A DNA stretch of 64,000 bases from Marsupella aquatica (taxonomy: Eukaryota > Plantae > Marchantiophyta). Shown here piece by piece: positions 5,291-57,105 of the stretch (positions are counted from its first letter, which is position 1; each line of letters opens with the position of its first letter). The position numbers and the translations under genes were made by a program. Below the pieces are notes generated by a model. That model was not told the origin of the DNA. It saw only the letters and a program-made list of their open reading frames with translations, and did no database searches. Where the stretch lies: positions 7,009,241 through 7,073,240 of the forward strand of contig OZ316899.1 of the NCBI GenBank assembly GCA_973895155.1, written 5' to 3'.

Positions 5291-5308
5291 CCCCTCCATC
5301 TAGCGCCA
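5291..5308 (-). promoter_or_regulatory. Primer-binding site TGGCGCTAGATGGAGGGG
   Basis: Starts with TGG, 4 nt after the CA end of the adjacent LTR (5313 on minus strand) and just upstream of gag. Resembles non-Met PBS types of Tat/Athila-group elements; cognate tRNA not determined. Confidence 0.7.
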
Positions 5309-6213
5309 AAAATGTGGTGCATCCCATGGCTCTCTAACCCCAAGAATCCTCCCTTAACAAGCCGATTCCCACTGGTTTCTTGCTTGCCAAGGCTGGTTCT
5401 GTGGTTTATCGGCATGGGACGCTGCTAACTCCTCTCTACTTCTTAGCCACATATATTGGACAGATCCTTCATCGGGTCATGAGATATGCACCCAGCCTAC
5501 TCTAAGCCTCTCCTTACTCTCTTCTATCGGTCTCCCTTCAGGCATGTTTGGATTCCGCCCCCAGAGTGATGCCCAATCGGCTTGGGTAGCCGCTAAGATC
5601 CCTCTCAACTCAACACATCCAACTCTTCCTGCTCCTAAACTTCCTTTCTCTCTTTGGTTGATGTGGGCAATCTTCACACAAGTTGGTGCGACACACAATT
5701 AGAAAGATGACTCCTACTGACTAAGGTATGCCATGCCATTGCCATACAAGGAGTACTTCTCATACACAAGGTCTGCAAACTAAGCCCAAAGGCCAAATCT
5801 ATTGATTTCAGCTCTTAGGTATGAGGAAACATGAATGTACACAAGGGTCACAGCATAACTAACCAAGAGCTTCTCTTTACTAATTGATTCCAGCCTTGCT
5901 GGTGCACTAAAACTTGCTTAAGAAGAAGGCCCTCTGGTTCGCGCTGCCCAGGTATTTATCCTAGCAGCGTACCTACCTATTTCCTTGTTGCATAAGCCAA
6001 ATCCACCTCTAAGTGGAATCTACCTATGTACAGCGGGGCAAGAGCACAAGTGTTGCTCTTACCAGTGGATCCGCAATCCCACTAATCTAAGTGTTAGAGA
6101 CGCTTATTGGTCCTGATCCTAATCCTAATTCTGGAGGTCCGCGCCCGCTCTACCCACTCATGCCTCCTACCTCCACGTCCGCCCTCTCTAAAAGGGACGA
6201 CGCCCTTACACCA

Positions 6214-7313
6214 TCACAACGCTGGTGGTTGGTCCTCAATGGACGCCCCTAATCCTTCCTTGGCGGCCAATGTAGGCTCCCCGTCCTCTGACAAGTTACC
6301 AGCTCCTAATTGGGTCAACCCATCTTCAGCGTGACCAGGCCCCACCCTTATTTTGGCCTCAGCCTCCTTGGCTTCTGCCTGCCCGGCCTTGGCCTGCCCG
6401 GCTTTTGGCTCCCCGACTTCTGCCTCCCCGGCTTCTGCCTCCCCGGCCTCGCCCAGTGGGGGTTTCACCCCTGTGGCTTCTGTACTGTCCCTCCTAGTAT
6501 TGGCTACCCTGCCGTAGTGGTCCTCCTCATAGGCTCATTCTATGAGTCGGGTTGTCTCGTCCTCCCAAGGTTGCGGTTGATGCCGATCAATGGTTGGAAA
6601 CCTTGAGTCAGTGCTTGTCATGGCCTCCCCCAACCGGTCTTCTTGGCCTACCTCCAGGACTGCTTCTTGATAGCCACAACCTTGCATATGGCCGGTGCCA
6701 TGCTCTCCACCTCAGCCACGGTGGCCTGACAAATGGTGTGGCTCCCTGACCCAGAAGGCTTCCGCTTTTTGTCCTTCCCCTCCCAAGCAGCTGGTGCCTT
6801 CCCCTTGCCACTTACTTCCGGCAAAGGTGAGGGTACCATAGCTTGTCGCTCGGTTAGTACCACGCCTTGCAACCTTGTTGCCGCCACCAGAGGTCCACTT
6901 GTTGCGGCCAGCCCATTTAGCTCCTTGGACTGCTTCTTCAACCGCTCAGTTTGGTTGTCCGCCTGCCTCTGCAGATTTTCTATTTTCTGGGTGGTGTCCT
7001 CCAATTCCACCAGGGTCTCGTCTAAATCCCCACAAGCTTGCTCCAACTCTGTCATGTTCTTGTCCAACTCCTTCCGTAAGGCCGCCCTCTCCTCCTGGGT
7101 TGCTTTCAACTCCGTGTTGAGCTCATGGACGACATCAAACTTGATCTTATTCATTTTCTTGTAGGTTTGATTGAGCATGTCATCCTTCTTACGCAACTTT
7201 ACTTGAAAGTTGGCCGACAGGTCCTCAAGGTCTTCTTTTAACTTGTCGATGCCCCTGTAGGTGTCATCAAGTTTGCCTTTCTTCTGATGGAGGGCTTTGC
7301 AGCATTCTTTGAT
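6214..7313 (-). pseudogene. C-terminal coiled-coil and acidic part of the LTR-embedded family-A gene (copy 1)
   Basis: ORF 6648-7196 (KKDDMLNQTYKKMNKIKFDVVHELNTELKATQEERAALRKEL) matches 38180-38782 and 41733-42362. A 15-bp repeat encodes EAGEA at ~6370-6450. Confidence 0.75.
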
Positions 7314-7337
7314 GGTAATGGTAATGGTAATGGTAAT
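7314..7337 (-). repeat. LINE 3' tail (ATTACC)4
   Basis: GGTAAT x4 on the plus strand, ~110 nt after the ORF2 stop and at the insertion boundary. Confidence 0.85.
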
Positions 7338-10648: not shown

Positions 10649-10660
10649 GGTCCCGATCCA

Positions 10661-11431: not shown

Positions 11432-11824
11432 CACAAAGCTGAAACTGTTGTTAGAATGTACTCTTAGACGACAAATAGAAATTGGGAGCAGTAGAGGATG
11501 TCAATTGCAGCTCTACCTTTGCCAGTGATACACTCTCGCTGTTTGCAACACTCTGCCAAAATCTGAGCTCAAACCGCAGCCGATTGCCCTTCCAACTCGA
11601 AGTGAAATTTCACCCCAAGCTCAGAATCCCGAAACTGGACACGTAGCAGATCGTGCATGCTTAGGGTGATCTCATCCTTCAGTGCCTGCTCCTTCCTCTG
11701 GGCCTTGGTCATGGCCTTGTTGCAGGCCATTATGTGAGTTGCCTCTAATCCATGATAACCCAGGATGATGATATAGACATTATCATCTGGGATCATGTTG
11801 ATGATAATGTTGGATCATATAGAC

Positions 11825-17585: not shown

Positions 17586-18102
17586 TTAGATTGGGATATA
17601 GTAGATTGGGATATAAAATTATCTTCTGCATTAAGGGCATATCGAACAGCTGAGAAAATCACAACCGCTAAAACTCCATTCTATCTCACTTATAGATTGG
17701 ATGCCCTAATTCCCATTGAGATGGAGTTCTTAACAGAGAGGACAGTCATTTTCGAATGAATAGAGGAGGAACCCAATTGGAAACATTGGAAGAAGATAGG
17801 TTACTTGCTTTACAACATACTTTACTTCAACAAATGAAGAGAAAGAAGGCTTTTGATAAAAACTTAAAGCCCAACATATTGAAGGATGGTGATTTGGCCT
17901 TAATCTATGATGCAAGATACATGTTTTTTCCTGGTAAACTCCATACCCATTGGATAGGCCCCTACAAAGTGATTAAAGTTTGGCAAAATTGATCTATTTC
18001 ATTAGCTACCTTAGATGGCACACCTTTAGACACAAGGATTAATGCGACAAGAGTTAAGCTTTATCTTGTACACCTTAAAGCTTTGAGGACACGACGCTGT
18101 TT

Positions 18103-19047
18103 GAGGGGGGACCTATGTGAAATGGTGATTATTCCTAGAAACAAGTTAAAGTATCAAAAATCATGAATTTTTTATAAAAAAATTGAACCTCTATGGCCTC
18201 TTAAGCTAGTTATTCCAAGTTATGACGACTTAGAAGATGGGACAGCCTGGATACCCATTGGCAAGACGTCAAGACAGCACCAAGATAAGGCCATTTTCAC
18301 AATTTTTGAGGACGGCCTGGACGGCCCTGAGTGCCGCCTAGACAGCTTCAAGTAAAGGACAGCCGGGACGGCAAGAGCACCAGCCTGGACGGCCCTATGT
18401 GAGGGACATCAGGGACGTCCACCTTTTTCACCAAAGACGACCTGATGCCTCCCGCAAGAAGAGCTCTTGAGTTTTCTCAGATTTTTGAAACTATGGCTAC
18501 CATAAGTTAACCATTTAGTAAGACCATTAGGGTGACCTTGCCTTCAGGTCCTAAGGCTTACTTTTGCCTTCTTAGTAACCTAGTGGAGATGGGATTGAGT
18601 TCTTTGCTTTTTATTCCATGGGATATTAATGGTGCATGGATCCATTATTGCCGATTTTCTTTGTCCACCCCAAACTGACACTTTTTGGAGCTCTATTAGA
18701 GGTTCAGCTGATGTTTGTATCACCACCATTGTTTCTGAGGTGTACCAGTTGAGCCAAGTTGGAGAGAGATTGATTTATGTTGGAGAGGACTTGATTGTCC
18801 CCTACTTTAGAGGTACCAAGAACCGGAGATCTGGTTGGAAGATTGATCAGTGCAGGAACCGAGAGTTAGCTCATTTATTCTGAGTCCTTGTACCTATCTT
18901 TCATCCGACCAAGCCCACCAGGGCTATGGTTTACTTGGTCAGCTCCATCATTGCTTCATGGACCGGCAAGAGGAGGATCAATTGGGCCCTATCTCTTTTG
19001 GAGGTGATCGCCAAGTAGGTGGCTGTCGTGACTACTACCAGTGATAT
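18103..19047 (+). mobile_element. Probable PPT (18103-18111) and start of the 3' LTR (TGTGA at 18116) of the Athila-like element
   Basis: GAGGGGGGA immediately after the integrase end, then TGTGA, the same start as the family-A LTR in element orientation. Interrupted at 19048. Confidence 0.6.
18493..19047 (+). pseudogene. Divergent homologue (family C) of the LTR-embedded PMD-like gene
   Basis: Manual translation with one frameshift and stops gives GLSSLLFIPW..IIADFL..IVSEVYQL..SGWKIDQCRNRELAHLF*VLVPIFHPTKP..INWALSLL. This is colinear with family-A GLEAFVKLPW..LLEFV..VIAEVFGL..NGFFQNTYTNPHIGEMIDFLRVTMHCNLP..DYNGYLL. Confidence 0.6.
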
Positions 19048-20944: not shown

Positions 20945-20946
20945 TG

Positions 20947-20958
20947 TGGTATCAGAGC
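20947..20958 (+). promoter_or_regulatory. PBS complementary to tRNA-iMet (TGGTATCAGAGC)
   Basis: Canonical plant iMet PBS. Also present at 51507-51518 and 58218-58229. Confidence 0.93.
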
Positions 20959-21089
20959 AATTGCTGGCATAGACACCGGGTCGGGGTTGCGCTAAGTCAG
21001 AATCCAAAAATCTTAACGGATTTTTGCGGGGACTTAGTGCTTCAACGTGCCCGACCGGTCAACTGTAGGCAGATTCGGTCATTGGGAAC

Positions 21090-36674: not shown

Positions 36675-39600
36675 GATATGAGGGCCTAGGCATGAGCAGT
36701 GGGTCGGCCTGAGAACAATGGGCAAAGGCACTTCACTTGCAAACGCCTAACTAGGAAGTTATGGGCGTTGCTAGTTGGTGGCGCCCAGATATGCGGGATA
36801 TGGTCCAGGTTGAGGACCAAAAGTTTGGGGACCAAAGGTGGCCCGGGGGTGGCAGGTCTTGTGGTGCGTCCCATGGCTCTCAAAACCCAAGAACCCGCCC
36901 TGAACAAGCCAATTCCCACCGGTTTTGCTCTTGCCAAGGCCATTTCCACGGCTTATCGGCATGGGACGCGGCTAAAACTCCTTTACTAACTTTTTACCCA
37001 CATGTATTGGACAGATCCTTCATCGGGTCATGAGATATGCAGTTGGTCTAATCTAGGCCTCTCCTTCCTCTCTTCCCTTGGTCTCCCCTTGGGTATGTTT
37101 GGATTCCGCCGCCGGAATGATGCCCAATCGACTTGGGTAGCCGCTAAGATTCCTCTAAGCTCAACACATCAGGCTCTGCCTGCTCCTGATGACTTCATTT
37201 CCTTCTTTTCTCTCCTATAGTTGATGTGGGCAATCTTTGCACAAGTTGATGTGACACACAACTAGAAAGATGACTCATACTAAGTTATACCGTGCAACTG
37301 TCATACAAAGAGTACTTCTCATACACAAGATCTGCAAACTAAGCCAGAAGGCCAACTCTATTAAGCTCTTAGGCATGAGAAAACATGAATACACACAAGA
37401 GTCACTACATAACTAACCAAGAGCTTCTCTGACTAATTGATCCCAGCCTTGTTGGTGCACTAAAAACTTGCTTAAGAAGAAGGCCCCAAAGTCCCCGTTG
37501 CACAGGTATTTATCCTGGCAGCGCACCTACCTATTTCCTTGCCGCGTAAGCTAAATCTACCTCTAAGTGGAATCTACCTATGTATAGTGGGGCAAGAGCA
37601 CAAGTGGTGCCCTTACCAGTGGATCCGCAATCCCACTAATCTAAATGTTAGGGCCGCTTCTTGGCCCTAATCCTAATCCTAAATTTGGAGGTCAGCGCCC
37701 ACTTTGCCCACTCACGTCTCCTACCTCCACGTCCGCCCTCCCTAACAGGGATGACGCTCCTCCACCGTCATGACGCTGGTGGCTGGCCCTCAATGGACGC
37801 CCCCAATCCTTCCTCGACAGCCAATGTAGGCCTCTTGTTCTCTGACAGGTTACCCGCTCTTGACTGGGTCAACTTATCCTCGGCGTGATCGGGCCCCACT
37901 CCTATCTTGGCTTCTGCTTCTCCGGCTTCTACTCCCCAAATTGTAACAGTGGTGAGTTTGCCCCTGCAGCTTCAACAGCAGTGGTCCTCCTCATAGGCAG
38001 TGGTCCTCCTCTTAGGCAGTGGTCCTCCTCATAGGCTCATCCGACGAGTCGGGTTGTCTCATCCTCCCAAGGTTGCGGGTGATGCCAATCAATGATTGGC
38101 AACCTTGAGTCAGTGCCCGCCATGGCCTCACCCAGCTGGTCTTCTTAGTCTACCTCTAAGACTGCCACTTTGACAGCCACTACCTCGCATAAGGCTGGTG
38201 CCATGCTTCTACCGAGGAGCCACGGTGGCCTAAGGAACCGTGTTGCTCCCTTACCCCAAAGGTTTTTGCTTCTTCTTGTCCTTCCCTTCCATGGTAGTCG
38301 GTGCCTTCCCCTTGCCACTTACTTTTGGCAAGGGTGAGGGTACCTTGGCTTGTCTCTTGGTCAGGACCACGCCCTACAACCTTGTTGCCACCATCGGGGG
38401 TCCACTTGTTGCTGCCTATCGATTTAATTAACTCCTCAGACAGTTTCTTCAGCCGCTTTGTTTGGTTGTCCGCTCGCCTCTGCAAGTTCTCTAATTTCTG
38501 TGTGGCATCCTCCAACTCCTCATGGGTCTCGTCTAAATCCCCGCGAGCTTCCTCCAACTCCTTTAGGTTGTTGTCCAACTCCTTCCGTAAGGCCGCCCTC
38601 TCCTCCTGGGTTGCTCTTAGCTCTGCGTTGAGCTCATGCACGACTTCAAACTCTATCTTATTCATCTTCTCGTAGGTTTGGTTGAGCATGTCATCCTTCT
38701 TATGCATGTTGGCTTGAAAGTTGGCCGACAGGGTTTTGCAGTCCTCCTTCAACTTATCGACGCTTTTGTAGGCCTCATCCAAGTCGTCCTTTTTATTATG
38801 GAAGGCCCTATGGAATTCTTTGATCTCCTCCTTCAGTGCCGCTCCTTCCTCAGCACCTTGGTCATGGCTTTGTTGACGACCGTTAGGTGAGCAGCCTCTG
38901 CATCTTTAAGCTCTTGCTTCCACTTCTCCTTCTCCTTGAGAGCCTCGGCCAAATGCCCTTGGGTCTAGGCAACTTTATTCTTGATTAACTGGTTATCAGC
39001 CTTGGCCGTATCCAGTTGCCCCTGCATGATGTTTATCTCATGCATCCTAACCCGCAGCTTGTCTTGAGCCTGTTTGGCTGCTTTTGGATCTCCAGTCTTG
39101 GCTTCCTTCTCTCTAAGCCGCCAGATGACCTCCTCTTTCTTCATCCTCTCCAAGGCTAGTGCCTCCTCCCACCGGCTCTTCTCCAACCTCTCCCTATGGA
39201 GGAAGGGCCCCATCTCTAACTCCTTGCCAAAGATGTTGAGGGCAAGTAACCCGCACATCCTCTCGTACTCCAGGGCTCTAGAACGTGCATAGATGGAGTG
39301 GTTAGGAGATGCCAACATCTCCCAACGCAGCCTTTGTTCCCAAGTCATCCTCCAAATCTTGTCAAACGTGGGCAAGGGCCCGACTTGGTCCTCTACAAGC
39401 CGCCAAATGTCCTTTGGCCATCCTTCGCCTGGCAAATCCTTCTCCTTGGCCAAGGTTGCCCTCTCCAGATCTTGGAGTTGCTCTTGCAACTCTTGGTCAG
39501 CCTGTTTTCTCCCATCGTAATTTGGAGGAGGGACGTCTGGTGGGGGAGACTCCGGGCTTCTCTGCTGTTTTGGGTCCCCACGCACCACTCTTGGAAGTGT

Positions 39601-41732
39601 GGGAATGAAACGGCCATAGGTCCGCACCCCTGGTACCAAATGATCTGACCCGTAGCTAAAGCGTCCTTGTTATATTCCTCCATGCCCTCCCTTCCGGCCT
39701 AGAGTACTGGTGCTTGCGGATCCTCTCTTGGGCTAGCCGCAAAAGCGGCATCCTGTTGGGAACTGTGCATGTGTGCGGTTCTCTCCTCTGGCTCCCACAC
39801 CTGCCTTCCTCTCTCCTCATCATGACTACAAACCCTGGGCCCTTGTCCCTCGGGTTCTGGTCTTGAGGCTCCCACGCACATCCGCACCCCTGGCTCGTCT
39901 GCTGGCATCCTTCTCTTTGCGCCCTCGGCAAACGGATCTGCTGTGGTGGGTCTTCCGGTTCCTCCCTCCTCAACCATGCCCTATACCGGTGCCCTTATTG
40001 TCATTGCCATCTTCTCCTTCTGGAACATCTGCAGCAGGCTCTACATGGTCGGTTGCTGCATTGGCATGGATTCCGGCATTGGACTAAAGATCTGTGATAT
40101 TGTGGAGCTGCCGGGCGGTTTGGGCTTCCTTGTTGCCGGCCTTGGCTCTAGCTCCTCCTTTGGTGCCCTTGCCTGCAGGGGGAGTATGGGCGCAAAGATC
40201 TGTCTCCGGGCATACCGGCACAACAACGGCATGTGATAACCAAGCCAAGCCACACTCCCCTGACCTGCCACTTGTTGTTCTTCCTTCAAGATCTTCTTTA
40301 GTTGGGCAAGGAGGTATCCATTGTAGTCCCAGCTTGGGGCTAGGTAAACCTGTGCCTTGCCGATCTCCAGTCTTGGCAGGTTACAATGCATTGTCACTCG
40401 CAAGAAATCATTCATTTCTCCAATGTGCGGGTTGGTGCAGGTGCTTTGGAAGAAGCCATTCTTTGTTGATGGCTTGGGGAATGATCTAAACTCCCTGTCC
40501 AACAAGTTCTTTTGGGTGTCTACCTTGGCCTTGTTGCCCATTGGCAAGCCAAACACTTTGGCAATCACCTTGGGGGTGAGATAGAAGTCCCTCCCATAGA
40601 TCTTGGTTGAGTTGGACTCGTGGTCCCATGATCCCACGAATTCCAACAAGTCTGATTTTGGCACCTCCGGTTTCAGCCACGACAATCTAACAATGGCCTC
40701 CAAGCCCAACCCGGCCATGAAGCCTTGGTATTTGTGGTACGTCCCATGGCTCCCTAAACCCAAGAAACCCCTTTGCACAAGCCGATTCCCGCAAGTTTCG
40801 CTCTTGGCGAGGCCGATTTTGCGGCTTAGCGGCATGGGACGCTGCTAACTTCCTTCTACTACTATTTAACATTTAACTCACATATACTGGACAGATCCTT
40901 CATCGGGTCATGAGATACATAGCCGGCCTATTCTAGGCCTTCCCTTGTCCTCCTCTCTCAATTTCCCTTTAGGTATGTTTGGATTCCGCCGCCGGAATGA
41001 TCCCCAACTGGCTTGGGTAAGCCGCTAAGACCTCTCTCAGCTCGACACATCCAACTCTTACTACCTTGCTTACTCCCTTCTTGGTTGATGTGGGCAATCT
41101 TCAAACAAGTTAATGCGACACACAAATAGCAAAATGACTCCTTCTGACTGAGTTATATCATGCACTTGCCATACAAACAGTACTTCTCATATACAAGATC
41201 TGCGAACTAAGCCGTGAGGCCAACTCTATTCATCTCTTAGGTATGAGGAAACATGAATATACACAAGGGTCATAGTATAACTAACCGAGAGCTTCTTTAA
41301 CTACTTGATCCCAGCCCTGCTGGTGCACTAAAAACTTGCTAAGGAAGAAGGCCCGCAACTCCCCGCTGCCCAGGTACTTATCCTGGTAGTGGATCCGCCT
41401 AATTCCTTGTAGCATAAGCCTAATCTACCTATGTACAGCGAGGCAGGAGCACAAGTGTTGCTCTTACCAGTGGATCCGCAATCCCACTAAGCTAAGTGTC
41501 AGGGCCGCCTCTTGGTCCTGATCCTAATTCTAAACTTGGAGATCTGGGCCCGCCCTGCCCACTCACGCCTCCCTCCACGTCCGCCCTCCTTAAAAGGAGC
41601 GGCCCTCCACCACCGTCATGGCAACGGTGTCTGGTCCTCAATGGACGCCCCCAACACTTCCTCCGCAACCACTACCGTAGGTACGTCCTCTGACAGATTA
41701 CCTGCTCCGGACCGAGTTAACTCTCCATCGGC

Positions 41733-44700
41733 CTAACTGGGTCCACCCTCGGCTTCGGCCTCAGCATCGGCCACGGCCTCCCCGACATGTTCTAGTGGTG
41801 GATCCGGTACCCTGGCTTCATCACCGAGTATCCTGGCCTTGGCTTTGCCATCCCCGCCTTCTAGGGCAGTTGGATCCTCTGTCGTGACCCTGCCTGAGGT
41901 TGGTGTTGGGTTTACCTCCTTGGTCACAACGGCTTGAGGAGCCGTATTACTCCCTGACCCAGAAGGTTTCTGCTTCTTCTTCTTCTTTGGTTCGGCAGCT
42001 GGCCCCTTCCCCTTGCCACTTACCTTCGGCACCGGTGCGAGTGTCTCGGCTTGTCCTTTGGCCAGTACTACTCCTGGTAACTTGGTTGCCCCAATTGGAG
42101 TTGGACCTGAGGAAGCCAAGCACTTAAATATTGCGACCTGTTTCTTTAGCCGCTCCATTTGGTTGTCGGCTCGCCGCTGTAAGTTTTCCATCTTCCGCGT
42201 GCTTTTCTCCAACTCCTCCTGCAATTCATCCAGGTCCTTGCACGCCTCCTCCCGCTCCTTCTGGGCTTCCTCCAATTCCTCCTTTAAGGTAGCCCTCTCC
42301 TCCTGGGTTGCTCTCAGCTCCTTGTTGAGCTCCGTAACGACCTCAGACCCCATTTTGTTCATCTTGGCATAAGTCTAGTAGAGTTGGTCGTCTTTCTCAC
42401 GGAGGTCGGCCTTGAAGCTGGCCATCATGGATGCGAGCTCCTGCCGTAGCACGATAATCGCCTGATAGGATTTCCCTAACTCGGCCTCCTTCTGCTCAAG
42501 GGCTCCGCGGATATCCTCGAGTTCCCCCTTTAGCGCCCTTTCCCTTCTCTGAGTTTCCGCCATGGCCCGATTGTTGGCTGCTATGTGGGCCTCCTTTGCG
42601 TCTCTCAGCTCTCGCTTCCACTTCTCCTTTTCCTTGATCGAATCGGCCAGCTCACCTTGGGTCCGAGTAAGTTTATCCTTTTTTTTCTTTTTTCTTTTTT
42701 TGGATTTTTACATTTATTCCGCGTGAAACCCATGGATGGGGGAACCAGCAGGCCAAACGGCATCATAAAACCTCAAACGCCCAAAGGAGGCAATAACAAA
42801 GAGTTACTCAACCAGGGTCACCAGATCAGGCAAAGATTATGAAGCCGTTCTACTAGTGTTCCATGCAGCAAGTAATAGCTAGGGGATAAGCACTAAAAGG
42901 CGCAGTAGGTCAGCAGAGTAAAAGTGTAAAGTGTCAAACCATTGTCTAGTACTGAATTAATCCACCTAATTAGTAAGAAGAGGGTGTATACTGTAGCGGG
43001 AGAAGGAAAAAAACCAACGGCATGAACTGTAAGGGCCACCAAGAGTGGTGCAGCCATAAGCTATAGGGATTGAAAACAGTGCGGGAGGTAGTGGCATTGT
43101 GTATGAGGAAATCACGGGAGTAACGGTGTCAAAAGAGAAGACAAAACTCCCAGATAGCCACATAGTATAAATCAATCTCTCACAAGGCCGCCATCAATGG
43201 AGGAAAAAATCCGACGCGACCCACGTCTGAGAGTGTGAATGCGCTCGATCTCCAACAGTTCTTTGGCACTCGATAGACACCGGTGCTTGCGGCTCAAAGA
43301 TGAAGGAGAAAGCATGGAAGCAGCCGCAGCGACATCAATTAGGTGGTCCAGGGTCTCCAAAATAATCAGCATCTGATCAAAAATCCTATGTCTAGTCCGG
43401 TCAAAAGTCTGAGCATTCCTAGCCAACCAAATGTTCCACAAAATCTGATAGGTAGTGTAGATCCGAAGGGAGTGAATAGGTAATTTTCCCACAGCAGACT
43501 TGATAAGGCCAATCAGGGATGGCGTTCCATTGCAGAGTGCACCATGCATCCACCCGTGAGCATCAGTCCAACACCTACTGGCGTGCCTGCATGAGAAGAA
43601 AATATGTGAGATAGACTCAAGGAGTCCCACACAAAGCACACAACAACCATCAGATTTTCCAATTCTTAGAGCCCTAGAGCCAGAAAACAGACCCTGTGCA
43701 AGAATACGCCATAGAAAGACTTTCGCTCGGGTAGAAAGATCAGATGTCCACACAGCCCTCCACACTTCATTCCATTCTCCATCTATGAGGGCCTCCGCCC
43801 AGATCCGGTTCAGACGAGCAGAATCAGTGCCTTTTGGGCGCAAAAACTCATAGGCTCGAACATTTGTTAATCCAAAGCGATTAGTTCCAACCGCCTGGTC
43901 CAGGCAAAGCCATTGTCGTGCAAGAGGCAAGGTTCCAATGCCGCCAAAGGGAGTTCCACGAATTACTCCCGTCAAAGAGAGACATAGAACCCTGCAAGGA
44001 GATGTAAGGCCTCTCAACCGTTGTAGTCGTGATTCAACATTCATCCATGTGCCATCAGTAGCAGACCAGAAATCCCCGATTTTCCTTATGCCAAGTTTAC
44101 CAAACGTTCTGGTTAACTCCATAATCACAGAATCAGGTAGCTCATAGAATCCCTATAAGCAGCGGATAGCATCTTCAAATCCCCAATGGCCAGGGATAGG
44201 GTCATAAGTATTAGGGTAGAAGATCAAGTGTTCTCTCAACTGTTCCCAGGCACTCCACAATTGGCTAGTATATGACAATCTCCCAAAGCTATGAGGGGTG
44301 CTAAGAAGCATCTTGTCAGTCAAGGAGTACACATTCCTGCGGACAATCTTGTAATTTTGCCATTTCGTCAATCGAAGATTTTCAGAGAGCATGCAAGCCC
44401 ATTCAGAGTCGGGGCAATCCAAAGCCCCGGTGAACCATTTACTCAAAAGTGCGTCCAAGTGACTTTTGAGATCCTTCAATCCGAGACCACCATCCAGCTT
44501 GGGCCGAGTCATCTTGTCCCAAGCCACAAGAGGGATTCGTTTCCCCCCCAACGGGTTGGAGCCCCACAGAAAAATCCTGTTTAAAGCAATCAACTTTTTA
44601 GTCAAGGTAATAGGTGAAAGTAGAAACATCATGTGATAAACCGGTATGGCCTGAAGCACGTGCTTGATTAACAACAGGCGGCCTGTGAAAGAAAGGAAGC

Positions 44701-47700
44701 GAGTAGACCAGGATGCAAGTCATGCACTGATCCGATCCAAGCAGAAGCAATGCAGTTGCTTCTCAGAAAGATTAGAACCAAAAGGGGCACCTATGTATTT
44801 TTGCACAGTGCCTGCAGCGCTAATTGTACACCCCGTTTCGTGTAGCCAGTCAGGGATCTCATCAATAGCCAAAGGTATAATGATAGATTTGCCCAGGTGG
44901 AGTTTAGCTCCAGTTGCACAATCATTCGTAGCAAGTGATAGTGTTTCTAGCCTGTGTAAAAGCAATCTTCGTGGCAGGAATGAAAAGGCCTAGATCATCG
45001 GCAAAAAGTCTAAAGCAAATAGTTAAAGAGGAAGAGATTTGTAGTCCTTGGAGTCGACCAGCTGCAATTTCCGCATGGCAAAAGTCCATCAATGGCTGGG
45101 TGGAGATAGCAAACAGAAGAGGAGAAAGGGGACAGCCTTGGCAAACTCCCCTGCACATCTTAATATCATCAGTCCAAAGTCCGTTGACCAGAACTTTAGA
45201 AAAGGAATTACTTAGCAGAGATCGAACTAAGAATATGTAATGTGAGCTCAGGCCCAAAAGATTCATAGTTTCCCAGATATAGAGATGATCGACCCTGTCA
45301 AAAGCTTTCTCAAAGTCAAGCTGCAAAAAGAGAGACGGAGTCTGCGTGGATTCAATCCAGTCGTGTGTCAACCACGTTAGTGAGATATTTTCCAGTATAT
45401 GACGTCCAGGAATGAAGCCTGTTTGCTGCGGACTAATCATACGGGGCAGCAGCACCTTCAATCGCAGGGCAAGTAGCTTCGCCAAAATCTTGTATGTGGT
45501 TGTTAGCATAGTTAGCGGCCTCCAGTCGCACAAACGACGCTTGTCAGTCTTCTTGGGGATAAAACGGATCACGCCATCTTTGATCCCATAGGAAATGTGG
45601 CCAGTTCTCCAAAAGTCGTAGATCATATCATATAGGTCAACTTTCACAAAATCCCAGCAAGGACGTAGAACTTTAGCAGTCATACCATCTATCCCTGGTG
45701 CTTTATCATTAGGTAGCAATAGTAGGGTATCATGTACCTCCTTAATAGTGGGTAAAGCTTCCAATTGGTGGTTCTCAGCGGCAGAGGGGCAAAAATGAGT
45801 GTGCTCACAGAGTTTTTGTCTAGCAGCACGCATCGCCAAAAGCTCCTCAACATTGAGTTCCTGCGGAGAATACAGCGCCTCACAGAAATTTTGAACCTCC
45901 TTGATGATCAGATTTTTGTCATGAATCTCTGAACCATCATCTCCAATTAGGTACTCCATAGTCTCTCTCAGACGTTTTGCTTTGACCAAAGAGAAGTAGA
46001 ACTTGGAAGGTTCTTCACCCTGGCCAAGCCAGTTGATCCGGGACAGCTGCCGGTAGTGATGTGCATTCTCAAGTTCCATTTTGCGAACACTGTTATCAGT
46101 ATAGGCAAATTCCTGCAGATCATTTGGAGCATGCTCGTCCATGATAGAGATTTTGAGGAGGCAAAGTTTGTTCCTGAGGATTGCCAGCTCCTCCTCCCGG
46201 GGTACCGGCAAAGATTGCAGCTCCATAAAGCACTTCCAAAATCTTTGGAATGCGTTGGCAAAGCGTAAATGAGGATCCGCAGAGGGCACATCATCACCCC
46301 GCCAGGCAGCCTCTAAAAGATTCAGGTTCTCTGCCTTCCGAAGAACAGAGGGCTTTAAATAAGTAGCTCTCTTATCCTTGATAATCTGATTATCAGACTG
46401 TGCGGTATCCAATTGCCCTTGCATGATGTTGAGCTCATGCCGCTTATTCCGCAGCTCATCTTGGGCTTTCTTGGCCGCCTTAAGGTCTTCTACCTTGGCT
46501 TCCCTTGCCCTAAGCCGACGGATGACCTCGTCCTTCTTGCTTCTCTCCAAAGCCACCGCTTCTTCTAATCGACGCTTCTCCAACATTTCCCTCTGGAAAA
46601 AAGGTCCCTGCTCCAACTCCTCTCCAAAGATGCCAAGCGCAAGTTCCCCACACATCTCCCCGTACTCCATGGCTTGTTCTTTAGCATAGGCGGAGTGAGT
46701 AGAAGTCATCGACATCATCCACCGCGGCCTTTGTTCCCAAGCCGCCTTGCCAATTTCTTCTATCGTGGCTGGTGGGCTGCTTTGTTTTTCTGCAAGCCGC
46801 CTGATGTCCTTTGGTCATTCTCCTCCTGGTAAATCCTTCTCCCTAGCCAGGGCTGCCTCTTCTTCCTCCCTGAGTCGTTCCTAAAACTCCTATGCCGTCT
46901 GTTTTATGCCGTCAAAGCTCGGGGGAGCGACATCTGGTGGGGGAGACTCGGGGCTGCTCTGCTGGGTCGGGTCCCCTCGAACTACTCTTGGAAGAGTGGG
47001 GATGAACCTGCCACAGGTCCTTATTCCTGGAACATGATGGTCCGACCCGTAGCCGGAGTCATCATTGTCGTAGCCTTCTACCGTCTCCTCCTCGGCTTGG
47101 ACTACCGGTTCCCACCGCTGCTGTCCTGGTCTTGCCGTGAACACGGCCTCACAGATCACGGGTCCTAGTTCCTCCGACTTCCACGTTGATCTCATCTTCT
47201 CCCTGTCGCGACTAGGAGCTTTGAGCTGCTTTTCCTCGGCTTCGGGACTTGAAGCTCCTACATACATTCGGACTCCCGGCTCGTGTTCCGGCCTCCTTCT
47301 CTCCTTGACCCCTGTAAAGGGGTTTTCCCTGGTAAGTTGGCTAAGGCCGACTTTGGGAGTAGTATTCTGTACCGGTCCCGTTGCCGTTGCCGTTCTCCTT
47401 TCCTTCTCCAGCAATTTCAGCAGAGTCTGCAAGCCTGGTTGCTGCATCAGCAAGTCCTCCTTCCTCGGCCTAAACACCTGCTCAATTGTAGGATTGTCGG
47501 ACTGGGTCGGTTTCTCTGTTGTCGGCCTCGGTTCCGGAACCTCCTCTGGTGCTCTTGCCTGCAGAGGCAGTACCGGGGCGAATATCTGACTTCGGGCATA
47601 CCGGCACAACAGCGGCATATGATAACCAAGCCGGGACACGCTTCCCATGTCGATCACCAGCTGTTCCTCCTTCAAGATCTTCTTTAGTTGGGTGAGGAGG

Positions 47701-48860
47701 TACCCGTTGTAGTCTCGGCTTGGGTCTGGCCTCTCCGCCAGATAGACCTGTGCCTTGCCGATCTCTGCCCTCGGCAAGTTACAATGCATGGTTACCCGCA
47801 AGAAATCGATCATTTCTCCTATGTGCGGGTTGGTGTAGGTGTTTTGGAAGAAGCCATTCTTTGTTGATGGCCCTGGAAACGCCCGGAACTCCCTGTCTAG
47901 CAAGGTCTTCCTGGTATCTACTTTGGTCTTATTGCCCATCGGCAAGCCAAACACTTCGGCAATCACCCGGGGAGTGAGATAGAAATCCTTCCCATACACC
48001 CTTGTGGAATTGGTCTCGGGCTCCCATGATCCCACGAATTCTAGTAAGTCTGAATCCGGCACCTCCGGCTTTAGCCATGGTAGCTTTACGAAGGCTTCCA
48101 AGCCGGATCCGGCCATGAAACCTTGGTATTTCCGAGTCTGCATAGCCGTAAAGCATGCATCCTCCTCCCGTGCAAAGTGTAATTGCACCTCCTTGAGGAG
48201 GGTCGCCGCCTAGCCTTTCCAGGTGTCATCTCTTGTTGGAACGGCATTGACGGGGTCGACCTCTTCCTCTTCGGCTTCCGCCTGCCTCCTACTTCCCTGC
48301 TCTGCTGGTTTTTTGGGTGCCACCGACCTCGTTCTTTTTGCAGGGGTGGCTTCTTCGTTGTTGTTCCCTTTCCTCTTCATAGCGACTGCCGTGGATGTTT
48401 CTCCTAGCACGGTTGCCTTCATCCACCCCTCCGTGCTACCCTTCAACTCCCAGTGTATGTCGTTGCAGCGGTTGATGGCCTCCCGGATGCTGACTATTCT
48501 ATTCTCACAAAATAGAAGATTGTCAAGTTCGTCGGCACTAGGCGTCCACAAGAATTCAGCCGTAATGAGTTCTCCTCCTAAGAAAGCAGACTTCTGCAGC
48601 TCCCACAACCGAGCGAGCTCCTGCCGTTCTCGAGCCGCTCTCTCCGATTCTTTGTCCTCGTAGGTCCCAATGTACTCAGTTGCCCGTTCTAACAGGCATC
48701 CCCAAGAATGAGCAGCTTGATTGACGTTGCTCATACCCTTCTTGAGTTGATTGTCGGTATCTGCTTCCACCCCGAGTTGATTGTCGGTATCTACGCACCC
48801 TAACCCTAATTGTGTTCCCTCCCCTGACGTCCTTACTTTTGGCCTCGGCTCGGGTTCCAT
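41733..48860 (-). pseudogene. LTR-embedded gene of ~1,140 codons: PMD/plant-transposon-like domain + long coiled coil
   Basis: ORF pieces 48210-48860, 46890-48188, 46372-46718, 42375-42563 and 41733-42362 are all in one frame once the 3699-bp L1 + TSD is removed; only point-mutation stops remain. Motif FYLTPRVIAEVFGLP. Start M(E/K)PEPRP is conserved in copy 2 (49853). Confidence 0.8.
42681..46371 (-). mobile_element. 5'-truncated L1-clade LINE (RT + zf-RVT, decayed)
   Basis: A-rich tail. TSD TTATCCTT at 42673-42680 and 46372-46379. KAPGIDG, DFEKAFD, QGCPLSPLLF, LFADD. Confidence 0.9.
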
Positions 48861-50035
48861 AGTCACCCTTAATTGTTTATATTTCCCTATTTTTGTTACT
48901 ATACTAAGGTGTTTCCTAGGGTACACTCCTGATTTTACTATTTAAACTGGCCTAATGATTCCTGGCTAGGCATCACAGTATTTTTGGTCTGCATGGCTAT
49001 AAAACATGCATCTTCATCCCATGCAAAATATAACTGCACTGCCAGTGGTAGGACCGCCGCCCACCCCTTCCATGTATCAGCTCTATTGGGGATGGCATTG
49101 ACTAGGTTGACCTCTTGTTCTGCGGCTTCCTCCTACCTTTGTCTCCCTTGCTTGGCTGGCTTTCTTGATGCTTCCGACCTCGTTCTTTTGGTCGGTGTGA
49201 TTTTTTTGTTGTTGGCCATCTTCCTTTTCCTTTCGGCCGCTCCTGACAACTCGGCCAGGATTGTTGCTTTTGTCCACGCCTCCGTGCAACCCTTCAGGTC
49301 CCAGATTGTTGTTGCAGTTGTTGATGGCCTACTGAATGCCAATGATTCTATTCTCTCAAAATAGAAGATTGTCAAGCTCATCGGCAATAGGCGTCCACAA
49401 GAATTCAGCCTTGATGATCTCTCCTCCTAGGAAGGCAAACTTTTGCAATTCCCACAGCCAAGCAAGCTCCTATCATTCTCAAGCTGCTCTTTCCGACTCT
49501 TCCTCCTCATAGGTCCCAATGTACCCACTTGCCATTTGAATAGGCATCCCCAAAAATGTGCAACTTGATTGACATTGCTCATTCCCTCCTTATGTTGTTG
49601 CTGGGTGTCTACTTCCGCCTGCCGTGTTCACCTTTGCAACTGACAGTCGTTGGCTTCTCCTTGCAATTTGTTTGATCAATGTGCGTGAATGAGCCGTCAC
49701 TCTTGGTGAACCTCCCTTACCCCCCTCCGGCCTGCCCCTGCCTGACTTGGTCGCTGATTACCTGCAACCACCAATACTTAGCGTACCCAAACCCTAATCA
49801 TGCCCCTTAGTGGTCCTTGCACCTATTACTCCCGGCCTTGGCTCGGGTTTCATGGATATCCTTAATTGTTTACATTTTCTTGTAAGGGTTTTTGTGTATA
49901 CCACCCAACTTTACTATTTTACAAGCCCTAGTGATTCCTGGCTAGGCATCACAGGTCTCCAGGAGCATATATGAGGGGAGTGGTGTCTCCATGGGGGCTA
50001 AGGACGAGCCAAAGTTGTGAGTTGCGGTGGTTGCA

Positions 50036-52355: not shown

Positions 52356-53812
52356 TGTCACGTCGTCGGCTTTGGCCTTAACTCGGGCTTCAGCTTAGAC
52401 GGGCACATCCTTTGTAAATATGAGGGTTCGGGCAGGGAGGGAAGCACGTAATGCACCTAATTCGTGTAAACTAGCGCTAAGTGCGCCTACTGTTAGATAC
52501 GGACACCTCCTAGGTATGGTTTGTGTTCCGCCGCCGGAACATACCTTAGTCGATAGCAGGATTGACCCCGGCTTAAGGGCTTCTAAGCCTTCGTGTTGTC
52601 CGCCTTTGATCCGGATTTTATGATACAGGTCCTCAACCCGTGCTCGCAACCACTTACCCGCAAGCTGCACCCCGTGCACGATTTGGGTAGTGCGTTCGGC
52701 CCGACATTGCCACCTATACACGAGATTCACCCATACATATACACGCACAAGCATACAATCTCGATTTACACGAAGGAAATGGTGGGAAAGGATTTTACTA
52801 CATAGGGGACATATGCGTACACTTGATTGACCCAACAGCTCTGGAGTGAACAGGTCCAAGACCGAGGGTGTACACTACAACGGAGCCTGGCTCCGCACTC
52901 GCCCAGCGAGCTTAGTCCTACCCCCCTCCCCTTGGTACTCTTCCACTCCCAGAGGTCGGGACTCCTCGCACATACCGCGGATGTCCAATTTGAGACTAAA
53001 AACCCCCCTGCCTCTACCGAGGGGTGCACTAAATACTAAGGGCCGAGGAACAGAGTGTCCTCCCGCCCGAAGATTCGCTGACTTAGGTCCTAACTAATCT
53101 GACTGTCAGGCCAAAAAACGGCTGTGTCTTATTAGAAGATCCTAAACTATGCAGGCTGGACAGCATGGCGGTGCTGTTTTAACTAGGGCAGGTTCCTGCC
53201 CCCATAGCCTGATTTAGCTATTCCTAACCCTATTCTATTCCTACTCCGCCGCTAATGCCTGGCATGCGTGCTAGAGCCGCTCGAGTGGGAGCGGCCATCC
53301 CGTTGCTTACGAAGTTTGTCGTTGTCCGCCTTGAGGAGCTGGACCTGGTCCAGTAGAGATTCGTTCTCTCGCTTCACCGCATCCGTCTCCTCCGCTGCCT
53401 CCTGGCATGCCTCCTCCAGTTGCTGGGCGTCGCTCGTCAGCTTGCCTGCCAGCTGGTCCTGCTTCTCGGCTTCGGTTTGGAGCCGTGCCACTTTGACCTG
53501 TAGCGTGGCTATCTTTGTAGTGTCCCGCTGGGCCCGTTCTTGGCCTCCTCCAGGTCTTTCTGCCAGATGACAATTTGATTATTCAAACTGTCAATCTGGT
53601 TCCGGAGTTGTGCAATCTCGGCCTCGTTCCCAGCTTTGGCCTGATCGGCTAGGGCGGTAAGGGCCTGCGCCTTTGCTAACAACTCATCGGCGGCTGCAAC
53701 TTTGGGTCGTAGTTGCAGAAGCTCAGCCTCTTGAGCCGCAACTTTGTTCTTTAAGTATACGGACTCCACTCGGTACCGCTCTATCCTCTGAAGGGCCTCT
53801 GACTGGGCCCTA

Positions 53813-56252
53813 TGTGACGCCAATGACGTGGTCCTTATTTTGTAATCTGATTAAGTAGGTTGCTGTATGCAAGGAGTAGCTATTGATATTGCATAACAAT
53901 TAGCAAGATGGCAAGAATAAGGGCAATCATGGCGTTAAGAGTAGGGAAATAAAAGCTATGTCGCGGGTGGTCGACGACCATATCTCTTTCAATATGTCAC
54001 CAAATCCGGATCTGTAAAGAGCATTGGAAAGATCTGGTCAAGGCGAGTAAAATCGATATAAAACACTCGAGAAACGGAGGTGTATTAAGAAAGATACGGC
54101 CTGATTAGTGTGACGGGTTAACTTGTGGCCGGAATTAACGGATTCGGCTTCAGTTTCGGGTTAACCACGGCTTAGCTTATGTGAGCACGGCTTCAGCTTA
54201 GCTCAGGTCAGCACGGCTTCAGCTTAGCTTAGGTAAGCACGGCTTCAGCTTAGCTCAGGTAAGAACGGCTTCAGCTTAGCTCAGGTCAGCACGGCTTCAG
54301 CTTAGCTCAGGTCAACACGGCTTCAGCTTAGCTCAGGTCAGCGCGGCCTCAGGTTAGCATAGGTAAGCTCGGATTCGGGCTCAGCTTAGGCTAGGTTAGC
54401 GGATAGCGGGTAGCGGCCTAACCCGAGACCACGGGTTAGCTCTACTCGGGTTAGATAGGATAGCTAGGTTAGCCAAATTCGGGTTAGCTATGTAACTCGG
54501 GTTAGCGCAGCAATGAGTACCCCCTCTCGATTGCGGGGGCATAACTCTCTGTGTATTTGACCAAATCGGCTATAATTGACCTCGTTGGAAAGAGGAGCTC
54601 AAGCCGCTTCCAACGCTGCTATCCACGCAGAAAATGGTTAAATAGAGAAATCGGGAGAGGAGGCGCAAGCTCGCAAAAACTATGGAGGAGGGCCGAATCC
54701 GAAGTACATAGCCAATTCGAGATAGAAATAAAGTTGCGAGTTAGGGTTCAGTAGTTAGAGATAGTGGCGGCTCTGTTAGGGCTGGGATGGGGCTCCAGCA
54801 GCGTAGTATCCACCCATTTGGGCTCAGTATGAGAGTATATAGGGCAGCCCCCGGTAGAGGCAAGGGGGGGGGGACTTCAGTTGTGTGATCTCACTTAGAC
54901 TGAGCAGCGGGGAGGAGCTCTGTGCAAGCAAGGCTAGACTTGGACGCTGCGTGTTGGGGAGAGCTTGGTTGTGCTATTACTCAGGGAGTAATCAGCCAAG
55001 CTTCACAGCAACGGGTTGCTAGGTTTGCGAGCTAGATTGTGGCTCTTTCTAGTGGGCAGCACAACTGGGTTCTTTTCCCCCGATACAGAGCCTTGGTGAT
55101 AGGTGATGTATTGGTGATTGTAAACTGTGGGGAGGATTTCAATTCGATTTGCGGTGGGCACATTAGGGAGGCTGAGGTCCTGATTAAGGGGCAGCAGGAG
55201 GAGCATTTACAGTTCAGTCTGGCAAGGCTACGTGATCCATGGGGAGTCCCTGCCTTTGTCTGGTGGAGAGCACTAAGGGATCTATGGCCAGAGCTGAGCT
55301 TGCAGGGCAAGCATGAGGCCGGGCCTCATTGCAGTCTGGGGTAGATCGCCGTTAGGCCTGGTACCAGCCTTGAAGTCGAGTCAACTATGCATGCGTAACT
55401 TGACGTTCTGAATTGGAGGTGTGAGATCTGTATGTGCCCCCAAGAATGAAGTGCAGTGAAGGAGGTTGAGTTCAGGATTGAGTTTGCAAGGCAAGTACGG
55501 GATTGGTTCGAGTCCAATCTGCCGTCGCAATCTGGAGTGAGCCGGGCTCAGGTTCAGGATTGAGCTTGCATGGCAAGCACGGGGCTTGCAGGGCAAGCAC
55601 GTCACAATCTGGAGGAGACAGCCTTCGGCCCTAGTATTCGGATCAAGTGTTCTCAGTGAACTATTGTGCACATCTTTGAATCTAATTGAGTTTTCCTCTC
55701 AGGCCTCATTTCTCTCATGGATGTGTGTGTGTGTGAGGAAATATGAGTGTATGATGGAACTAGCAGCGCCACTGAGAGGTGTACCGGGTGCATTGAAGCG
55801 GGCTGGGTGAGGACTGTCATAGCTCTGATTGTTGAGAGTGGAATGGCAGAGTGGTGGGGCAATGGCTTAGAAGTCCCTAAGCCGGGAATCAGTCAGGAGT
55901 CACTGGTTTATGGGTACATTCCGGCGGCGGAATAGAAACATACCTATGATAGTAAGCATATGTATAGACCTATTGCGCACCGTAGTGCTAGGCCCTGTGT
56001 GTACGGGCCCGATATGAAGACCCCTTCTCACCAGAACTATCATGAGCGCAGATCTGATCCCCAACCTTGGTTCCTTGGGATTGAGCTTGGGTGATGTGTG
56101 ATAGAGTCTTGCTATGATAGTCTGGTGTTAAGGGCATAAACTGGTGTTTATCGGCATTCACAACATCCCTTCGTGATCCTCAGGTACAAGGAGATGGTTT
56201 TGGCACCCATAGTGACATTTTTGGTGTTAAGACCCATGTCAATCGCGTGACA
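53813..56252. mobile_element. Solo LTR, 2.44 kb
   Basis: TGTGAC...GTGACA termini. TSD CCCTA (53808-53812) / CCCGA (56253-56257), 4 of 5 matching. Removal restores the host frame. Confidence 0.78.
54166..54370 (+). repeat. 26-bp tandem repeat CACGGCTTCAGCTTAGCTCAGGTCAG, ~7 copies
   Basis: Head-to-tail units without spacers, degenerating at both edges, inside the solo LTR. Confidence 0.88.
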
Positions 56253-57105
56253 CCCGACGTGCTTTTACTGCGGCAACCAACTCCTGATTGAAGAAACAGG
56301 CTACCTTCCGGGCCATGAACTCCCCGGTATCCCGGGAAATTTGATGAGAGAAATCTCCCAGAAGCCCGTTCAGAAATGTACCCGGTACGAAGAGTTCCGG
56401 GTGGTCCAGGTTGTGCCTGTCCGGAGTTGGGCACGGGAAGACGTCAACACGCGCGGGGGCCGGGGCAGTGACATCCAGCCCTGGGGACGTAGTGTTGGAA
56501 GGGGTTGGAGTGTCCTCCTGCAGCAATGTCCGGTTCTCCGGAATAGCCACCGGTGGGTCTTTGGGAGACCCGGGCTCGAGTAAGGCCTCCGCTGTACCGA
56601 CTTTTGTACTTGGCCCGGCCTGTTGGATCGCATCTACGGTTGCAATAACCGACCCATCCGGTACCTCCTCGGTTACAACTACAGCTACTTGTGGAGGTGG
56701 GGTGGGTGAAGCCTGCGTGTCCGCTGGACTTCGGGTCTCGGGTTGGGGCCGTCTCTCTAAGGCCGGGAAAACCCACCTAGCTGGGACCAGCTTTGTAATG
56801 TTGACACGGGGAAGGGTTCGTCGATCGAACCGAGTGTACCACTCAAGAATGATCTCAATGTGGCTAGCAAAATACGCCTTCCCGCCAATGTATAGCGTCT
56901 TTCTTTGCCGCTCCATCTCTTCATGGAATTTCTTAGCGAAGTACGACGCCCACTTCCTAGGTCGATAGTTCTCGACCTGGATAACCTGGGCAGCGGAGAT
57001 CTCCCCCCGGGATTTCATCATGTGGAGGGCGTACCTTTGGAACTCCAGTCGCTCAGCTATCTCGGGGATGAGGCAGGTCCTCATCACGAACCCGTTGTCC
57101 ACTGC

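What the first reader, a model, noticed from the sequence alone, without database searches (positions are those of the whole stretch)
36860..49953. Giant LTRs that are mostly a gene: a ~1,140-codon PMD-like/coiled-coil ORF inside the LTR (U3) of a Gypsy family
Seen: two units (36860-49953 and nested 40733-48977), net 4.5-4.8 kb, have TG..CA termini and perfect 5-bp TSDs (GGTCT, GTATT) but no gag/pol or internal LTR pair. A third copy (5313 onward) ends 4 nt before a PBS followed by gag, so the unit is the LTR itself. About 75% of it is one reading frame (ATG 48860 to 41733 after removing the L1). It starts ~120 nt inside the LTR, in sense with gag, ends ~1 kb before the LTR end, and keeps its start codon between divergent copies. 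Known: Athila/Tat/Ogre elements carry extra PMD-like or coiled-coil ORFs, but in internal regions; LTR-encoded genes are best known from retroviruses (MMTV sag, HIV nef). Inference: each insertion deposits two gene copies and each solo LTR leaves a self-contained gene. The protein may act in anti-silencing or chromatin, by analogy with MAIL1/MAIN PMD proteins.
Basis: partly seen in the sequence, partly recalled or inferred. Interest (0 to 1): 0.9.

Follow-up and report, generated by a model that had tools for sequence, protein, structure and literature searches.

The report
Giant plant LTR carrying a gene
Two 4.5-4.8 kb insertions that are most likely the lone end-repeats (solo LTRs) of a plant jumping gene consist three-quarters of one 1,142-codon protein gene that was kept by selection but is broken in every copy seen here, a layout known from mouse mammary tumour virus and not found for plants in the papers searched.

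Summary
Both units have TG..CA ends and exact 5-bp target duplications. A third copy abuts a primer-site-like motif and a gag gene, with 2.1 kb of the unit, including coding sequence, upstream. The unit's head is not repeated inside it. In four public read sets, summed coverage drops 47- to 399-fold exactly at its first base. The unit is therefore most likely the LTR (about 85%), although no intact two-LTR element or purine tract before the head was seen. The 1,142-codon frame fills 75% of it; dN/dS between copies is 0.23 (0.10 in a 190-residue domain). All three copies here are broken. The PMD label is unsupported: no Pfam hit, and structure models failed. The domain has 15 database relatives (one named, from a liverwort) and two more in the window; one lies after pol, a purine tract and TG. 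Selection on the 3' LTR of replicating elements explains the conservation, so working solo-LTR genes are not needed. The likely role is a nuclear accessory factor; anti-silencing is analogy only. The scan noted LTR-embedded genes before in fungi and a flatworm (unchecked notes).

The parts
36860..49953 (-). Outer unit, putative solo LTR, net 4,844 bp (36860-40732 and 48983-49953), inserted in a chromovirus LTR
   Evidence: TG..CA, TSD GGTCT at 36855-36859 and 49954-49958; empty site in another chromovirus LTR copy
40733..48977 (-). Inner unit, putative solo LTR, net 4,546 bp, inserted in the ORF of the outer unit
   Evidence: TG..CA, TSD GTATT at 40728-40732 and 48978-48982; family-wide terminus at 48977 in contigs of 4 of 4 runs laid
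41733..48860 (-). Long ORF of the inner unit, 1,142 codons net of the L1; broken by 5 premature stops and the L1, no frameshift
   Evidence: dN/dS 0.23 against the outer copy over 950 codon pairs; 0 of 5 stops shared with the outer copy
47550..48185 (-). Conserved globular domain of about 190-210 residues, no known family
   Evidence: dN/dS 0.10 and 83% protein identity to the outer copy; 15 relatives at E<=0.001, 14 after dropping one that matches only the linker; no Pfam hit
42078..46889 (-). Charged, predicted coiled-coil region (46372-46889 and 42078-42680), split by the L1
   Evidence: many weak below-cut-off hits to unrelated coiled-coil families; heptad scan; dN/dS 0.25-0.26; no transmembrane segment, maximum 19-residue hydropathy 0.94
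42681..46371 (-). 5'-truncated L1 LINE inserted in the ORF, with poly(A) tail and 8-bp target duplication
   Evidence: contig depth far lower than over the unit
40733..41732 (-). Non-coding 1-kb tail (inferred end of U3, R and U5); TATA-like motif 648-655 nt from the end in all three copies; conserved hairpin motif near 40970-40999
   Evidence: K2P 0.17-0.23 between copies against dS 1.05 in the ORF, no codon periodicity
48983..49853 (-). 5' part of the outer copy's ORF (ATG 49853); it continues at 40732 and below, with 12 stops in the aligned parts and several frameshifts
5313..7330 (-). Copy 3, 3' part of the unit (coiled-coil end of the ORF plus tail), read as a 5' LTR
   Evidence: 80-83% identity to the outer unit
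11668..11740 (-). Copy 3 continued beyond an inserted LINE, still inside the ORF; truncated here
5291..5308 (-). PBS-like motif, 4 nt after the terminal CA of copy 3
   Evidence: sequence; likeness to the 3' end of plant tRNA-Asn is recalled, not tested
3637..5157 (-). Decayed gag after the PBS (Retrotrans_gag and CCHC knuckles); no pol follows
   Evidence: read with X at stops
18100..19042 (+). Distant relative (family C): purine tract 18100-18115, TG at 18116, decayed sense ORF from 18493 with a weak match to the same domain, directly after a pol gene
   Evidence: 14.7 bits against a profile built without it; best of 2,000 shuffles 6.0; hhalign E 0.002 but probability only 13%; RT and RNase H confirmed
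56242..57105 (-). Distant relative (family B): C-terminal half of the same domain, with a coiled-coil frame (about 53250-53800) and a related tail (to 52356) downstream
   Evidence: tblastn E 4e-7 and 6e-8

Best explanation
The two target-site-flanked units are most likely solo LTRs of a high-copy non-chromovirus Ty3/Gypsy family, and they hold a 1,142-codon gene under purifying selection that lies in the inferred U3 and likely encodes a nuclear accessory protein of the element. Shown: ends, target duplications, frame, selection, and the link of the 3' end to a PBS-like motif and gag. Inferred: (1) the transcription start lies about 620 nt from the LTR end, so U3 is about 3.9 kb and holds the whole gene. 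(2) In a full element the 3' LTR copy lies at the 3' end of the genomic RNA and is expressed from a spliced or internally promoted transcript, as for MMTV sag. (3) Reverse transcription copies that U3 into both LTRs, so selection acts on the 3' copy, while 5' and solo copies are passengers that decay. (4) LTR-LTR recombination left the two solo units. (5) The layout would have arisen when plus-strand priming moved to a purine tract upstream of an Athila-like 3' extra ORF. (6) The protein (conserved helical domain, disordered linker, coiled coil, basic patches, no membrane segment) would oligomerise and act on the element's own chromatin or RNA; anti-silencing in the manner of VANC is my preferred guess, at about 35%.
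For: Two independent insertions, with dS about 1.05 between them, share both termini, each with its own exact TSD. The 130-nt head has no second copy inside either unit: local scores 22 and 26 against shuffle maxima of 34 and 37. No terminal-repeat-like start preceded by a purine tract lies inside the units (one purine-rich hit inside the outer ORF, not shared by the other copies). Summed contig depth falls at 48977|48978 from 67,944 to 1,457, 229,226 to 1,793, 20,383 to 137 and 88,574 to 222 in the four runs, with 8-13 unlike flanks per run (agreement 0.43-0.47). The whole net unit is deeply covered and the L1 is not. Copy 3 has 2,091 bp of the unit, including coding sequence, directly upstream of PBS and gag. 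dN/dS is 0.23 (bootstrap 0.19-0.29), lowest in the ORF frame in 6 of 6 segments; the tail has no codon periodicity. The stop at 46815-46817 is absent from essentially all contig depth over it in 4 of 4 runs. A distant relative lies after pol, purine tract and TG. Precedent: MMTV sag lies in U3, is mostly found in solo LTRs, and has omega 0.289 attributed to replication (PMC4667437).
Against: No intact element with the whole unit at both ends was seen; no genome is held. No purine tract was seen before the family's own head: the flank consensus is mixed. Copy 3 lacks its 5' end, so a tandem arrangement could also put coding sequence before a PBS. Contig depth is 2- to 5-fold higher over the last tail bin than over the adjacent ORF bin; lower identity there explains it, but shorter LTRs in some relatives would too. 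In family C the match is weak, the frame break was placed by eye, and the purine tract could be internal (Athila is recalled to have one after pol; not confirmed). No pol is linked to the family itself, so the lineage is not fixed. No open copy was seen. There is no evidence on function.
Confidence: 0.8

Rival explanations
1. The ORF is an ordinary internal 3' extra ORF of an Athila/Tat-like element with a roughly 1-kb LTR, and the TSD-flanked units are deletion derivatives.
For: This is the common layout: extra ORFs in plant elements are described as internal (PMC7264820; PMC6317226). A conserved G-rich stretch lies about 850-870 nt from the end. The tail is more deeply covered than the adjacent ORF end.
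Against: A derivative would begin with the same sequence as its 3' LTR, but the head is not repeated. Two independent copies have the same two ends. The head is a family-wide terminus. The G-rich stretch did not meet the PPT-plus-TG scan.
Confidence: 0.08
2. The unit is an LTR-derived element that now moves as a single-repeat entity, or a different kind of TG..CA transposon carrying its own gene, and its place before a PBS in copy 3 is a relic or chance.
For: Both complete copies lack any internal region; no pol is linked in the window; the family appears very abundant.
Against: The CA, TTTT, TGG spacing before gag is what a 5' LTR shows, and the same spacing occurs after a related LTR at 56225. 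Terminal inverted repeats are only about 8 bp and imperfect. The protein has no transposase or integrase hit.
Confidence: 0.07
3. One reading: the gene is in the LTR and solo LTRs are working transcription units with a promoter in the first 100-120 nt, supplying the protein in trans.
For: The ATG and its A/T-rich upstream context are kept in both copies; a polyadenylation site would lie downstream in R; MMTV has a U3-internal sag promoter (PMC4667437).
Against: 3 of 3 copies here are broken. Conservation needs no solo-LTR function. The upstream room is very short.
Confidence: 0.2

Closest known systems
MMTV sag, the superantigen ORF in U3 of betaretroviral LTRs (PMC4667437, passages read)
   Same: Gene in sense inside U3, duplicated in both LTRs, mostly preserved as solo LTRs, omega 0.289 attributed to replication rather than to integrated copies
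   Different: Animal retrovirus; the gene is much shorter (about 320 codons, recalled) and unrelated in sequence; here a plant-type Gypsy with 1,142 codons and no membrane segment
Extra ORFs of Athila, Tat, Ogre and Retand elements (PMC6317226 passages, section 13 and two supplements; PMC7264820 main text; PMC11963269 passages)
   Same: Non-chromovirus Gypsy with 5-bp TSD, accessory ORF with coiled-coil (SMC-like) parts, LTRs up to about 5 kb
   Different: Described as internal (5' of gag or between pol and the 3' LTR); PMD ORFs of Ogre are 431 of 434 antisense; no PF10536, PF03078 or PF04195 hit here
Ogre giant LTRs, 1.9-6.5 kb (PMC6431247, passages)
   Same: LTR size
   Different: Those LTRs are treated as non-coding; their extra ORFs are internal
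VANC anti-silencing proteins of VANDAL transposons and MAIL1/MAIN PMD proteins (bioRxiv 10.1101/2024.04.02.587720 passages; PMC5418596 passages)
   Same: Transposon-encoded globular domain plus coiled coil; VANC's main domain is reported to be structurally like MAIL1
   Different: No sequence link shown here and the fold could not be tested; VANC belongs to DNA transposons; PMD clades were described from angiosperms

Membership tests
Solo LTR of an LTR retrotransposon | TG..CA ends with a 4-6 bp TSD and no internal region | tested here: met
   2 of 2 complete units
Solo LTR of an LTR retrotransposon | The same 3' end abuts a PBS and gag in another copy | tested here: met
   copy 3; tRNA identity not tested
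Solo LTR of an LTR retrotransposon | The same 5' end follows a PPT in another copy | tested here: inconclusive
   one search shows a sharp family terminus but only a mixed flank consensus; purine tract plus TG seen only in distant family C
Solo LTR of an LTR retrotransposon | Whole unit present at both ends of an intact element | not testable with these tools
   no genome held; no exact match of the head in metagenome contigs
Ty3/Gypsy non-chromovirus OTA (Athila/Tat) | RT-RH-INT phylogeny | not testable with these tools
   no pol is linked to the family in the window; family C pol has RT and RNase H but was not placed on a tree
Ty3/Gypsy non-chromovirus OTA (Athila/Tat) | 5-bp TSD, Retrotrans_gag, non-Met tRNA primer | tested here: inconclusive
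   TSD and gag met; Phygy and Selgy have 4-bp TSDs; primer recalled as tRNA-Asn, which one search lists for Athila, TatII and Retand
Plant mobile domain (PF10536) / Transposase_32 (PF20167) / ATHILA ORF-1 (PF03078) | Profile match to the Pfam model | tested here: not met
   no hit for any ORF piece or for the 16 database proteins scanned, at E up to 1-10, with HMMER filters on
Plant mobile domain (PF10536) / Transposase_32 (PF20167) / ATHILA ORF-1 (PF03078) | Shared fold | tested here: inconclusive
   models at pLDDT 43 and 45; no significant PDB or viral match; no library of predicted plant structures on hand
Env-like plant extra ORF | Transmembrane segment | tested here: not met
   maximum 19-residue hydropathy 0.94
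LTR-encoded gene of the MMTV sag type (layout only) | Sense ORF under purifying selection within U3 | tested here: inconclusive
   selection met; position within the unit met; the U3/R border is inferred from a TATA-like motif
LTR-encoded gene of the MMTV sag type (layout only) | Transcript and protein from the LTR ORF | not testable with these tools
   no RNA holder listed

The most novel reading that the evidence does not exclude
A clade of non-seed-plant Gypsy elements has moved a large accessory gene into U3, so that every LTR, including very many solo LTRs, is a 3.4-kb gene cassette. Young solo LTRs express a chromatin-binding anti-silencing protein in trans, and the same layout holds for the related families B and C.
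Probability: 0.2. Interest if true: 0.88.

Novelty: new variant of a known kind. Interest (0 to 1): 0.66.

Why it matters
Plant LTRs are treated as non-coding and plant extra ORFs as internal. A 1,142-codon gene inside the LTR would be several times longer than MMTV sag (size recalled). It offers a mechanism for giant LTRs, capture of a 3' extra ORF by a shift of plus-strand priming, that can be tested in one long-read assembly. Solo LTRs would spread and preserve the gene without gag-pol, where annotation may call it a host gene. It also defines a transposon-linked domain family absent from Pfam.

Tried and rejected
Whole-genome search: no genome held. Word-indexed protein searches: the 832-residue read-through found nothing among 7,997 candidates; the domain profile found only its own members. 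Exact head motif in metagenome contigs: 0. Homolog P0025 in metagenome contigs: 0 of 74 candidates confirmed. Domain region in viral contigs: 0 of 35. PDB sequence searches: best E 0.49 and 0.39. Two AlphaFold models at pLDDT 43 and 45; Foldseek found nothing at E<=0.001 in PDB or viral libraries and VIA-align best Z was 3.5, so the fold is untested. The ESM Atlas did not answer in 10 tries. No RNA holder listed, which says nothing on expression. Contig depth was not used as copy number, and the flank consensus was not read as a PPT. P0006 was dropped from the homolog set: it is a tandem repeat matching only the linker. Rejected: chance frame (5 stops against 26-55 in the other frames, codon periodicity); env-like protein (no membrane segment); linking the + strand pol at 12700-18100 to the gag at 5157 (opposite strands). 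Ten literature searches listed no report of an LTR-internal gene in a plant retrotransposon. The library lacks most subscription papers: Steinbauerova et al. 2011 was not seen, nor Wright and Voytas 2002, nor Repbase, nor the per-element table of PMC6317226 (too large), any of which could hold a precedent.
Full report
Verdict. The PMD name and the idea of working solo-LTR genes are not shown.

Observation. The outer unit (36860-49953) and the nested inner unit (40733-48977) lie on the minus strand, start TG, end CA and carry exact 5-bp duplications, GGTCT and GTATT. The outer unit sits in a chromovirus LTR whose other copy shows one GGTCT; the inner unit sits in the ORF of the outer. An L1 with an 8-bp duplication interrupts the inner unit at 42681-46371. 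Net sizes are 4,844 and 4,546 bp. The inner frame runs from ATG 48860 to 41733: 1,142 codons, 75% of the unit, with 5 premature stops against 55 and 40 in the other two frames (40+15 and 29+11). The outer copy keeps the ATG but has 12 stops in the aligned parts and several frameshifts; 0 of the 5 inner stops are shared.

Is the unit the LTR? Five points say yes. (1) Two insertions that are far apart in sequence share both ends. (2) The first 130 nt are not repeated inside either unit (scores 22 and 26, shuffle maxima 34 and 37), which a deleted element with short LTRs would require. (3) Copy 3 ends at 5313, 4 nt before a PBS-like motif and a gag that passes the PF03732 cut-off, and 2,091 bp of the unit, coding sequence included, lie upstream. 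(4) In contigs of 4 of 4 public runs laid (2 studies; one may be the source of the window), summed depth falls 47-, 128-, 149- and 399-fold across 48977|48978, with 8-13 unlike flanks per run. The whole net unit is deeply covered and the L1 is not. These depths are not copy numbers. (5) A distant family in the window has pol, a purine tract (18100-18115), TG at 18116 and then a decayed sense ORF. It matches the domain profile, built without it, at 14.7 bits against a best of 6.0 in 2,000 shuffles; hhalign gives E 0.002 but only 13% probability.

Against this reading: no intact element was seen, no PPT was seen before the family's own head, copy 3 lacks its 5' end, the tail is 2- to 5-fold deeper than the adjacent ORF bin, and the family C tract could be internal. 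I put the LTR reading at about 85%.

Is the frame a gene? Yes. Over 950 codon pairs dN/dS is 0.23 (bootstrap 0.19-0.29, dS 1.05). It is 0.10 in the globular domain and 0.15-0.31 in the other five segments, always lowest in the ORF frame. The tail shows no codon periodicity and is far more conserved than synonymous sites (K2P 0.17-0.23), as expected of promoter, R and U5. One stop could be checked in contigs: 46815-46817 is absent from essentially all depth over it in 4 of 4 runs. Whether fully open copies exist could not be seen.

The protein. An N-terminal region, a conserved domain of about 200 residues, a low-complexity linker, a long charged predicted coiled coil and a basic tail; no membrane segment. 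A full HMMER search of 1.84 billion representatives gave 15 hits, one dropped as a linker repeat. Of the 10 looked up, one is named by species, from the liverwort Calypogeia fissa; the rest are unnamed or 'hypothetical'. Two of the longer relatives also pair the domain with a coiled coil. This points to a non-seed-plant host, which I did not determine. No Pfam family matches the domain. Its helix, hairpin, helix start resembles PMD and Transposase_32 motifs only by my recall. Both models failed (pLDDT 43 and 45), so the fold searches say nothing.

How it likely works (inferred). A TATA-like motif 648-655 nt from the end in all three copies puts the U3/R border about 620 nt from the end, so the gene lies wholly in U3. 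Only the 3' LTR's U3 is copied in reverse transcription (established retroelement biology), so selection on that copy explains the conservation, while 5' and solo copies ride along and decay, as all three here have. Expression would come from a spliced or internally promoted RNA ending in R. A shift of plus-strand priming to a tract upstream of an Athila-like 3' extra ORF would create the layout in one step. The architecture suggests an oligomeric nuclear factor. VANC, which has a MAIL1-like domain and dimerises by a coiled coil (bioRxiv 10.1101/2024.04.02.587720, passages), is the best analogy, at about 35%.

Comparison with what is known. MMTV sag is the closest layout: in U3, mostly in solo LTRs (490 of 527 contigs), omega 0.289, and no selection found after integration (PMC4667437, passages). 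Plant extra ORFs are described as internal (PMC7264820, main text; PMC6317226, passages, section 13 and two of its supplements), and giant Ogre LTRs are treated as non-coding (PMC6431247, passages). Ten searches listed no plant case, but the main survey of extra ORFs (Steinbauerova 2011), Repbase and the per-element table of PMC6317226 were not seen. PMC11963269, PMC5418596, PMC12885004 and PMC7466625 were seen as passages; the last two added nothing on this point. Earlier scan notes report LTR-embedded genes in two fungi and a flatworm (unchecked), so the layout may be recurrent; nothing was noted for this genome or sequence.

Score. A real and unusual architecture, strongly but indirectly supported, and decidable with one assembly. 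It is a new variant of a known kind. Interest 0.66.

Noticed in passing
window 40970-40999 (-), 37091-37117 (-), 52513-52539 (-), 55917-55946 (+): A short palindromic motif 160-280 nt from the LTR end is shared by three otherwise unalike LTR families and folds as a hairpin with a 4-nt loop, with a longer stem in families B and B+. It may be a packaging, dimerisation or protein-binding signal.
   Followed up: partly
window 52356-57105 (-): Family B unit inserted in a chromovirus gag: same domain, a coiled-coil frame and a tail of about 900 nt, so the same order as the main family; truncated at 57105, so its LTR start is not seen.
   Followed up: partly
window 53994-56243 (+): A related 2.2-kb LTR without a long ORF (TGTCAC..GTGACA), inserted opposite within family B and carrying TTTT plus an 18-nt PBS-like stretch before a 4-of-5 target duplication; it looks like an integration with an unprocessed end.
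   Followed up: partly
window 12400-19043 (+): Family C element: pol without gag, broken by an L1 (about 13505-14330) and a copia piece (about 15460-17680), then purine tract, TG and the domain ORF.
   Followed up: partly
window 19835-26730 and 57106-64000: Near-identical duplication (8 differences in 6,896 columns) of a chromovirus piece with its nested L1. Contigs spanning the 48977 junction have several times the depth of the shallowest contigs in some runs, so this locus itself may be multi-copy.
   Followed up: no
window 7445-11500 (-): A LINE with two open frames (279 and 1,071 codons; endonuclease and RT) inside copy 3, ending in short tandem repeats; it looks young.
   Followed up: no
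window 19043-19852 (+): Tandem repeats of the first 400 nt of the chromovirus LTR.
   Followed up: no
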